Program-made: the position numbers and the translations under genes
The notes under the pieces: model-generated
What the model was told of the DNA's origin: nothing
Database searches by the model: none
Seen by the model: only the letters and a program-made list of their open reading frames with translations
Source: a virus
Taxonomy: Duplodnaviria > Caudoviricetes
IMG/VR virus record: IMGVR_UViG_3300025652_006157
Location: 1 to 58,046 of that record
DNA: 58,046 bases
Strand: one strand, 5' to 3'
Shown: positions 11,178 to 11,249 of the stretch, in pieces
How the letters are laid out: every line of letters begins with the position of its first letter
Numbering within the stretch: position 1 is the first letter of the stretch

Positions 11178-11249
11178 ATGTGGACAAAACCTGAATACTC
11201 AGATATGCGCTTTGGCTTTGAAGTAACAATGTATATCTGCACACGCTAG
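11178..11249 (+). CDS. pqqA: PQQ precursor peptide PqqA
   Basis: [23 protein letters not shown] (23 aa, E-x-x-x-Y core); GAGGA RBS; TATAAT upstream; terminator downstream. Confidence 0.93.
   Translation: [23 protein letters not shown]

What the first reader, a model, noticed from the sequence alone, without database searches (positions are those of the whole stretch)
11178..11249. Stand-alone phage pqqA (PQQ cofactor precursor peptide)
[23 protein letters not shown] is below the ORF-track cutoff but is a clear PqqA with the Glu-x3-Tyr core, its own -10, RBS and terminator. No pqqB-E are in the window. PqqA is the stoichiometric substrate of PQQ synthesis, so it is the cheapest way to boost PQQ-dependent methanol/alcohol dehydrogenase flux. 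The [10 protein letters not shown] form is typical of methylotrophs as I recall. This is a candidate new auxiliary metabolic gene and a host clue.
Basis: partly seen in the sequence, partly recalled or inferred. Interest (0 to 1): 0.85.

Follow-up and report, generated by a model that had tools for sequence, protein, structure and literature searches.

The report
Host-derived pqqA in a T5-like methylotroph phage
A large T5-like phage carries its own copy of the tiny gene for the peptide that bacteria turn into the cofactor PQQ, almost identical to that of Methylophaga methanol-eaters; this kind of phage gene has been reported before but turns out to be far more common, and more often overlooked, than the records show.

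Summary
The ORF at 11178-11249 (+) is real and is a PqqA: TIGR02107 49.3 bits (cut-off 20), Pfam PqqA 44.3 bits (cut-off 21.1), with the Glu-x3-Tyr core. The window is a fragment of a T5-like siphovirus. pqqA follows a cluster of 13 tRNAs and a permuted tmRNA, with an RBS and a strong terminator.

No pqqB-E, PQQ-dehydrogenase or integrase was found in the window or in a complete 91.6-kb relative (G001), which keeps pqqA at the same place (pN/pS 0.08).

The peptide is 22 of 23 identical to a variant found in 13 bacterial loci, all Methylophaga/Methylophagaceae. Against 37 Methylophaga genomes, all listed DNA matches but two tRNA hits fall on pqqA and its leader.

Best reading, about 0.7: an auxiliary metabolic gene supplying the consumable precursor to the host's PqqBCDE, keeping methanol dehydrogenase supplied. 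Expression was not shown.

It is not a new kind. Viral PqqA was reported from Lake Baikal viruses in 2020.

New here:
- a T5-like carrier and a Methylophaga-type peptide;
- at least 120 IMG/VR contigs with stand-alone pqqA in many phage backgrounds;
- unannotated pqqA in all nine methylophage isolate records hit in the phage collection.

Verdict: new member of a known kind, moderate interest.

The parts
11178..11249 (+). pqqA coding sequence, 23 aa plus stop; cross-linking residues Glu15 and Tyr19; N-terminal W-T-K-P leader
   Evidence: purifying selection against the relative G001 (pN/pS 0.077) and against Methylophaga copies (0.08)
11164..11171 (+). Shine-Dalgarno-like AGAGGAAG, 6 nt before the ATG
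   Evidence: the leader is homologous to leaders of Methylophaga pqqA copies
11149..11275 (+). segment with DNA similarity to Methylophaga pqqA loci (leader, CDS and a few bases beyond), up to 94% identity over 64 nt
   Evidence: all listed matches but two fall in this interval, in 37 of 37 genomes; the rest of the window (20001-58046) gave no match
11086..11115 (+). sigma-70-like promoter candidate ATTACA-18-TATAAT (weak evidence; not conserved in the relative)
11123..11143 (+). small hairpin in the predicted 5' leader (weak: z -2.3, 5 of 200 shuffles fold as well)
11263..11300 (+). intrinsic terminator, 13-bp stem plus T-run, directly after pqqA
   Evidence: conserved with a compensatory change in G001

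Best explanation
The ORF is a functional, host-derived pqqA carried as an auxiliary metabolic gene by a virulent T5-like siphovirus. The host is a PQQ-dependent methylotroph of the Methylophaga/Methylophagaceae type.

Proposed mechanism:
1. During infection the 23-aa peptide is made from the phage genome.
2. The host's own PqqD/PqqE, PqqB, PqqC and a peptidase bind and process it into PQQ.
The phage therefore needs to carry only the consumable part to keep PQQ synthesis going once host transcription falls or host DNA is degraded.
4. That keeps periplasmic methanol/alcohol dehydrogenases supplied with cofactor.

The logic resembles cyanophage psbA.

Shown here: family membership, phage context, host origin, stand-alone status, purifying selection, and recurrence across many phage backgrounds.

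Inferred: translation during infection, processing by host enzymes, and any benefit to the phage.
For: (1) It is a PqqA by two curated models, with the E-x3-Y core and the WxKP leader.

(2) The context is phage on both sides: T5-like replication genes, split NAD ligase, SbcCD and tail/head modules. DNA polymerase is 43-45% identical to Demerecviridae.

(3) An independently assembled complete relative, G001 (91,590 b, CheckV 100%), is collinear at 83-91% nucleotide identity and has pqqA at the same place. A third, more distant lineage member (L268) also has it there.

(4) Purifying selection:
- Window vs G001: 7.5 synonymous vs 2.5 non-synonymous differences, pN/pS 0.077. This pair was found through another gene, so it is unbiased.
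- Window vs 16 Methylophaga-type copies: 0.08 on the 12 codons outside the search pattern.
- 102 unique viral CDS: 0.275 on 15 codons.

(5) Host origin. The peptide is 22 of 23 identical to a variant found in 13 loci, 13 of 13 Methylophaga/Methylophagaceae. DNA similarity to 37 of 37 Methylophaga genomes is confined to pqqA among the listed matches, apart from two tRNA-Leu hits.

(6) Stand-alone. No PqqB/C/D/E and no PQQ-dehydrogenase domain in G000 or G001. PqqE is over its cut-off in 3 of 4 candidate host genomes, and PQQ-enzyme domains occur in M. muralis.

(7) Dosage matters in hosts. There are 9 pqqA hits in M. muralis and 3 each in two other Methylophaga-type genomes and in Ca. Methylopumilus. 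Methylophilaceae have 3-12 pqqA copies but a single pqqBCDE (PMC4109929, passages).

(8) Recurrence:
- Their flanks fall into 15-23 context groups.
- Head, terminase, portal or T4-like genes lie beside pqqA in sampled loci.
- 9 isolate records of Methylophilales phages carry it.
- P19250A's peptide is 23 of 23 identical to that of its host clade.
Against: - No expression evidence for this copy. Metatranscriptome contigs cover other parts of the phage, but they touch pqqA only with 35-nt pieces from other organisms' pqqA.
- No biochemical evidence that phage PqqA is processed.
- PQQ and holo-dehydrogenase may outlast an infection cycle, so extra precursor may give little benefit.
- The promoter is not conserved in the relatives.
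- One lineage member (L268) has ATA where the ATG start should be.
- The host assignment rests on pqqA alone. No other DNA match to 37 Methylophaga genomes was found. The runs holding the phage are labelled freshwater, whereas Methylophaga is, as I recall, mostly marine or saline.
- The dN/dS figures come from a 23-codon gene with saturated synonymous sites and non-independent pairs.
Confidence: 0.7

Rival explanations
1. Same gene and same processing by host enzymes, but the benefit is not methanol-dehydrogenase flux. The extra PQQ could serve other quinoproteins, act as a redox or antioxidant protectant, or be released at lysis as a shared vitamin.
For: M. muralis has 13 PQQ-repeat domain hits, so several quinoproteins exist. 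OM43 culture media are supplemented with PQQ as a vitamin (PMC9004378, methods passage). A 2026 study files viral pqq genes under phosphate solubilisation (PMC13188868).
Against: The viral copies found are overwhelmingly of the peptide type seen in methylotrophs. All isolate carriers infect obligate methylotrophs.
Confidence: 0.12
2. Neutral passenger. A short piece of host DNA was picked up by illegitimate recombination next to the tRNA/tmRNA cluster and has no role in infection.
For: The homologous segment is only about 125 nt. It sits in a region rich in acquired small genes (13 tRNAs, tmRNA, GOLLD RNA). The upstream promoter region is variable, and L268 lacks an ATG start.
Against: The position is kept in three diverged lineage members, with mostly synonymous change. 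The RBS and terminator are conserved. The gene recurs in at least 15 other phage contexts.
Confidence: 0.08
3. Decoy or interference peptide. The phage peptide occupies PqqD/PqqE and lowers host PQQ synthesis, or it has an RNA-level regulatory role.
For: The N22T/S change is fixed in the three lineage members, but it was not tested for any effect.
Against: The cross-linking residues and the leader are intact, and the peptide is 22 of 23 identical to the host's. P19250A's peptide is 23 of 23 identical to its host clade's. A decoy would be expected to lose Glu or Tyr.
Confidence: 0.04
4. Assembly chimera or host contamination of the viral contig.
For: The IMG/VR record is a linear fragment, CheckV 52%.
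Against: G001 and L268, other records of the collection, show the same arrangement. The listed rest of the window has no DNA similarity to Methylophaga. Several DNA runs from different studies hold the 5-kb stretch.
Confidence: 0.01

Closest known systems
PqqA encoded by Lake Baikal viral population VP_266 (Coutinho et al. 2020, PMC7678222; passages read)
   Same: A virus-encoded PQQ precursor peptide, proposed as an AMG that supports methanol oxidation in methylotrophic hosts. There is no complete pqq operon on the virus.
   Different: Those viruses are T4-like, are predicted to infect Methylophilaceae, and also encode methanol dehydrogenase. This phage is T5-like, has a Methylophaga-type peptide, and has no dehydrogenase. 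I could not compare sequences, because the Baikal contigs were not in hand.
Unannotated pqqA of isolated Methylophilales phages (Melnitz x4, Venkman, MEP301, MEP401/402, P19250A)
   Same: A stand-alone 23-24 aa PqqA with an RBS, 61-77% identical to the window's peptide and sharing the [11 protein letters not shown] core.
   Different: They belong to different phage families (Kyanoviridae, Zobellviridae, lambda-like siphoviruses) and carry the Methylophilaceae-type peptide. In the records the site carries no annotation or a 'hypothetical protein', in Melnitz-1 an ORF on the opposite strand. The main texts of the MEP301, MEP401/402 and Venkman papers hold no 'pqq', and the Melnitz paper mentions PQQ only as a medium supplement. 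The P19250A paper was not in the library.
Orphan extra pqqA copies in methylotroph chromosomes
   Same: Same peptide, often away from pqqBCDE and in many copies: 3-12 in Methylophilaceae (PMC4109929), 9 in M. muralis. The window's leader and RBS resemble theirs.
   Different: They are chromosomal and under host regulation. The phage copy has its own flanks, a lineage-specific N22T/S change, and AT-rich synonymous codons.
Cyanophage psbA (D1 protein), recalled from general knowledge
   Same: A phage carries only the rapidly consumed component of a host energy-yielding system and relies on host machinery for the rest.
   Different: psbA encodes a protein subunit with experimentally shown expression during infection. 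Here the product is a sacrificial peptide substrate for cofactor synthesis, and nothing has been shown experimentally.

Membership tests
PqqA (TIGR02107 / PF08042) | Score above the curated cut-off of the family models over their full length | tested here: met
   49.3 bits vs 20; 44.3 bits vs 21.1
PqqA (TIGR02107 / PF08042) | Conserved Glu and Tyr separated by three residues (the atoms of PQQ) | tested here: met
   E15-V-T-M-Y19 in the translation; invariant in all 120 viral and 132 bacterial copies, though by construction of the search pattern
PqqA (TIGR02107 / PF08042) | Short peptide (about 20-40 aa) with an N-terminal leader, W-x-K/T-P, that PqqD recognises (the role of the leader is recalled) | tested here: met
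   23 aa with W2-T-K-P5. The leader is present in phage and host copies; binding itself was not tested.
PqqA (TIGR02107 / PF08042) | Encoded next to pqqBCDE | tested here: not met
   No PqqB/C/D/E in G000 or G001. This is not strictly defining: hosts carry many orphan copies, and only 34 of 126 bacterial loci had PqqB within the flank held.
PqqA (TIGR02107 / PF08042) | Converted to PQQ by PqqD/E, B, C and a peptidase | not testable with these tools
   Needs biochemistry or complementation
Phage auxiliary metabolic gene | Lies inside a viral genome, flanked by viral genes, not at a host junction | tested here: met
   no integrase
Phage auxiliary metabolic gene | Close host homologue with a known metabolic role | tested here: met
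   22 of 23 identical to Methylophaga PqqA; DNA up to 94% over 64 nt
Phage auxiliary metabolic gene | Maintained by selection in the phage lineage | tested here: met
   pN/pS 0.077 vs G001; syntenic in three lineage members
Phage auxiliary metabolic gene | Expressed during infection | tested here: inconclusive
   RNA-library contigs do not cover this pqqA; contigs cannot show absence
T5-like phages (Demerecviridae), carrier genome only | T5-type gene set (split NAD ligase, D5-like regulator, SbcCD, PolA, tRNA cluster, long tape measure and J-like tip) with sequence relatedness | tested here: inconclusive
   The gene set is present. The best DNA polymerase hits are Demerecviridae at only 43-45% identity, and no DNA match in the phage collection for the 5 kb around pqqA. 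It works like a T5-like phage; formal family membership was not assessed.

The most novel reading that the evidence does not exclude
pqqA is the hallmark auxiliary gene of phages that infect PQQ-dependent methylotrophs, a 'psbA of methylophages'.

- It has been captured independently by T4-like, T5-like, lambda-like and podovirus lineages.
- In each lineage it is kept matched to the peptide variant of the host clade: Methylophaga type here, the LD28 type in P19250A.
- It has been missed in almost every record because gene callers skip 23-aa ORFs.

If so, it would be both a general rule (phages carry the sacrificial substrate, never the enzymes) and a practical host-typing marker for uncultured methylophages.
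Probability: 0.45. Interest if true: 0.65.

Novelty: new member of a known kind. Interest (0 to 1): 0.5.

Why it matters
Methanol and other C1 compounds are a sizeable carbon flux in seawater and lakes. The bacteria that oxidise them depend on PQQ enzymes.

A phage gene that feeds the one consumable input of PQQ synthesis would mean that infection keeps, or raises, methanol oxidation in infected cells. That bears on carbon budgets.

The practical gains are immediate:
- The gene is present but unannotated in cultured phage-host pairs (Melnitz, Venkman, MEP301/401/402, P19250A), so the idea can be tested at the bench now.
- The peptide variant gives a host clue for uncultured phages, here pointing a T5-like lineage to Methylophaga-type hosts. 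No isolated Methylophaga phage turned up among the pqqA-bearing records found here.
- It is also a reminder that ORFs under 30 aa hide real auxiliary genes.

Tried and rejected
Expression. The look-up of sequencing runs found five RNA-library runs with small shares of window 9000-14000. Four of them were laid on the stretch. Exact pieces cover, for example, 10887-11054 and 12347-12577. pqqA is touched only by 35-nt pieces with 3 mismatches that continue into a different C-terminus, so they come from other organisms' pqqA. This gives no verdict on expression.

Searches that gave nothing or could not run:
- Megablast of window 9000-14000 against the phage collection: no match.
- The search for related loci and the search for homologous proteins could not take a 23-aa query. 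Degenerate DNA patterns were used for the census instead.
- The exact peptide is not in the 15-billion-protein collection.
- Spacer or prophage links to 37 Methylophaga genomes: none for 20001-58046. The tool warns that an empty answer shows nothing.

Discounted hits. The two 'Acinetobacter phage MD-2021a' records are bacterial chromosome contigs with pqqABCDE, fur and ppk, so they were dropped from the phage count.

Neighbours. Pfam on ten ORFs around pqqA found only a cell-wall hydrolase and a DUF. No processing peptidase lies nearby.

Weak features:
- The 5' leader hairpin is weak (z -2.3).
- The first dN/dS run was biased by codons the search pattern fixed. It was redone without them.
- The exact-end test for terminal repeats in G001 failed at 100-5000 b. 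I rely on IMG/VR's label only.

Not run: complex prediction on PqqA with PqqD, because a peptide 22 of 23 identical to the host's would pass by likeness alone.

Full report
**The observation**

Window 11178-11249 (+) reads ATG...TAG and translates to [23 protein letters not shown]. It matches the NCBIfam equivalog TIGR02107 (PQQ_syn_pqqA) at 49.3 bits (cut-off 20, E 2.9e-13). It matches Pfam PF08042 at 44.3 bits (cut-off 21.1). Both matches are end to end.

The Glu and Tyr that become PQQ are present (E15, Y19), as is the W-T-K-P leader.

- A Shine-Dalgarno-like AGAGGAAG lies at 11164-11171.
- A 13-bp stem with a T-run lies at 11263-11294. It folds at -18.8 kcal/mol, z -6.5, and 0 of 200 shuffles fold as well.
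- A sigma-70-like site (ATTACA-18-TATAAT, 11086-11115) is there. But promoter-like sites are not enriched in this AT-rich stretch: 18 found against 14.8 +/- 3.9 in shuffles.

Only the 'own -10' is weak.

**What carries it**

The window is an entire IMG/VR virus record, linear, estimated 52% complete.

PHROG matches for 61 ORFs give two blocks:
- On the + strand: thymidylate synthase, PhoH, DHFR, an NAD-dependent ligase split in two, a D5-like regulator, DnaB-type helicase, primase, family-A polymerase, SbcCD, RusA, dUTPase and ribonucleotide reductase.
- On the - strand: portal, protease-capsid, tail terminator, major tail protein, a 1448-aa tape measure, a J-like tip and fibres.

The polymerase's best hits in 50,697 phage records are T5-like Demerecviridae of Gammaproteobacteria, at 43-45% identity. 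A 5-kb stretch around pqqA (9000-14000) has no megablast match in that collection. No tyrosine integrase was found.

pqqA sits at the end of a cluster of 13 tRNAs and a permuted tmRNA (Rfam RF04321, 112 bits, 10633-10998). A GOLLD RNA lies at 4398-4818.

**Relatives**

A neighbouring 205-aa protein found one close relative, G001: 91,590 b, labelled with direct terminal repeats and CheckV 100%. It is collinear with the window at 83-91% nucleotide identity.

G001 has pqqA at the same place, after its tmRNA and before the same terminator and downstream gene. Its peptide is [23 protein letters not shown]. The terminator stem carries a compensatory change and folds at -21.2 kcal/mol. The promoter-bearing 80 nt of the window is missing in G001.

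A third, more distant member (L268) is also syntenic. Its ORF is intact apart from ATA in place of the ATG start.

Neither G000 nor G001 has PqqB, PqqC, PqqD or PqqE by HMM or tblastn. The PqqC model had no positive control. However, the Acinetobacter PqqC used found 19 of 126 bacterial loci. Neither phage has a PQQ-repeat dehydrogenase domain.

**Selection**

- Window vs G001, a pair found through another gene and so unbiased: 7.5 synonymous against 2.5 non-synonymous differences, pS 0.61, pN 0.047, ratio 0.077.
- Window vs 16 Methylophaga-type copies, on the 12 codons the search pattern did not fix: ratio 0.08.
- Across 102 unique viral coding sequences, on 15 free codons: ratio 0.275.

The gene is short, synonymous sites are near saturation and the pairs are not independent. 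These are indications rather than precise estimates, but they all point to constraint on the peptide.

**Origin and host clue**

Of these, 96 name a Methyl* taxon: Methylophilaceae, Methylotenera, Methylophilus, Methylophaga, Methylomonas and others. Most of the rest carry only high-rank MAG labels.

The variant [23 protein letters not shown] differs from the window's peptide at one residue. It occurs in 13 loci, all Methylophaga or Methylophagaceae.

BLAST of the whole window against 37 Methylophaga genomes hit all 37, several times each. Every listed match lies in 11149-11275 (up to 94% over 64 nt), except two on a tRNA-Leu; 151 further matches were not listed. Positions 20001-58046 gave nothing.

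So the gene and its short leader are host-derived, the listed rest of the genome is not, and contamination is excluded.

The host call rests on pqqA alone. The runs that hold the phage are labelled freshwater, which sits uneasily with Methylophaga's mostly saline habitats (recalled). 'Methylophaga-type methylotroph' is the safe wording.

**How common it is**

tblastn of the peptide against the phage collection hit 12 records. Two are mislabelled Acinetobacter chromosome contigs with a full pqqABCDE operon.

The other ten are phages:
- Melnitz x4 (Kyanoviridae), MEP401/402 (Zobellviridae), Venkman, MEP301 and P19250A. These are all isolates on OM43 or LD28 Methylophilales.
- One metagenomic phage.

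At these sites the records show no annotation or a 'hypothetical protein'. In the six loci fetched, four have no feature there and two (Melnitz-1 and the metagenomic phage) have an ORF on the opposite strand. I could not list the collection by name, so 'all isolated methylophages' is my recollection of which isolates exist.

- 120 of 120 encode complete 23-25 aa PqqA-like ORFs.
- 0 of 120 has PqqB-E nearby, against 34 of 126 bacterial loci with PqqB. For the viral loci, 80 had flanks of up to 2 kb and 40 had only 300 b.
- The flanks of 87 loci (80 IMG/VR, six from the phage collection, plus the window) fall into 15 context groups by lenient linkage, or 23 by a stricter rule. Venkman, MEP301, P19250A and the metagenomic phage fall in the largest group.
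- In 19 loci sampled from the other groups, pqqA lies beside capsid, terminase, portal, tail tube, T4-type clamp loader, RegA or UvsY genes. Eight of the 19 had no informative hit.

P19250A's peptide is 23 of 23 identical to the pqqA of Ca. Methylopumilus, its host's clade. Two further viral contigs carry the Methylophaga type: L268 and an unrelated 40-kb phage, L267.

**Mechanism**

Established biochemistry, as summarised in the passages read in PMC7678222 and PMC9851590:
- PqqE, with PqqD, cross-links Glu and Tyr within PqqA.
- PqqB and PqqC complete the cofactor.

Hosts amplify only pqqA:
- Methylophilaceae have 3-12 copies against a single pqqBCDE (PMC4109929).
- M. muralis has nine hits, and even the 1.3-Mb Ca. 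Methylopumilus genome has three.
- In a PQQ-overproducing methylotroph, two pqqA copies and pqqE rise most (PMC9851590).

The simplest reading is that precursor supply limits PQQ output. A virulent phage that shuts down or degrades the host genome (inferred from T5 biology, not shown here) then replaces the one short-lived input. That keeps methanol dehydrogenase, and hence energy and C1 supply, running through the latent period. I give this about 0.7.

Rivals:
- The same processing but another use of PQQ (0.12).
- Neutral passenger (0.08).
- Decoy peptide (0.04).
- Assembly chimera (0.01).

**What is known**

A viral PqqA was reported and interpreted in this way for T4-like viruses of Methylophilaceae in Lake Baikal, which also encode methanol dehydrogenase (PMC7678222). 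A 2026 study lists viral pqqA, pqqD and pqqE among AMGs (PMC13188868).

Full-text searches for pqqA with 'phage', for pqqA with 'auxiliary metabolic', and for OM43 with 'phage' and 'pyrroloquinoline' found nothing else on phage pqqA among the papers I opened. One search listed only 20 of its 60 papers, of which I opened three; the rest were not read.
- The main texts of the MEP301, MEP401/402 and Venkman papers hold no 'pqq'.
- The Melnitz paper mentions PQQ only as a medium vitamin.
- The P19250A paper is not in the library, and supplements were not opened.

**Verdict**

The gene is real, functional-looking and host-derived, and the AMG reading is sound. It is a new member of a known kind, not a new AMG.

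What this adds:
- a T5-like carrier with a Methylophaga-type peptide;
- the demonstration that the lineage carries only the substrate gene;
- the breadth of the phenomenon, including cultured phage-host pairs in which it can now be tested.

Interest 0.5.

Noticed in passing
window 4398-4818 (+): GOLLD RNA (Rfam RF02032), 174 bits against a gathering score of 150, full model length. It lies between tRNA genes in the early region of this T5-like phage.
   Followed up: no
window 10633-10998 (+); L255 8082-8559: Phage-encoded permuted (two-piece) tmRNA: RF04321, 112 bits, ARAGORN tag ANDNIYALAA. It is conserved in relative G001 with tag ANDNIYALVA. Permuted tmRNAs are, as I recall, typical of Alpha- and some Betaproteobacteria and cyanobacteria, not of Gammaproteobacteria such as Methylophaga. 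Its origin is therefore unexplained.
   Followed up: partly
window 2901-10161 (+): Thirteen tRNA genes, including three tRNA-Met and one called tRNA-Cys with the odd anticodon ACA at 8182-8257. The relative G001 has 16 tRNAs with a normal Cys-GCA.
   Followed up: no
L002 3961-4056 (Melnitz-1 record): The GenBank record annotates a hypothetical protein on the strand opposite to the pqqA ORF. The real 24-aa pqqA, with an AAGGAGG RBS, is unannotated. In MEP401/402, Venkman, MEP301 and P19250A the site carries no annotation at all.
   Followed up: yes
L008 (CAKLQF020000010.1) and CAKLQH020000055.1: Records named 'Acinetobacter phage MD-2021a' in the phage collection. The stretch of L008 that I fetched is bacterial chromosome (entB, fur, ppk, pqqABCDE), which points to host contigs filed as phage. 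The second record was not fetched; it was judged only by its name and its identical match.
   Followed up: partly
L268 (IMGVR_UViG_3300007520_000039), pqqA start: In a distant member of the window's lineage the pqqA start codon reads ATA instead of ATG. The rest of the ORF differs from the window's mostly at synonymous sites. This could be a rare start codon, a sequencing error or early decay.
   Followed up: partly
window 30351-33238: The ribonucleotide reductase genes (30348-33224) have no blastn counterpart at the matching place in G001. This suggests a module swap between otherwise collinear genomes.
   Followed up: no
L267 (IMGVR_UViG_3300037386_000041) 1919-2051: An unrelated 40-kb viral contig carries a Methylophaga-type PqqA with an extended N-terminus, MFTQNWVTPEYSD..., followed by a terminator-like hairpin. 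It is possibly a second, different phage of Methylophaga-type hosts.
   Followed up: partly
window 11318-11548 (+): The 76-aa ORF directly after the pqqA terminator is conserved in G001 and L268 but has no Pfam or PHROG match. The ORF list's start at 11285 lies inside the terminator stem, so 11318 with a GGAG RBS is the likelier start.
   Followed up: partly
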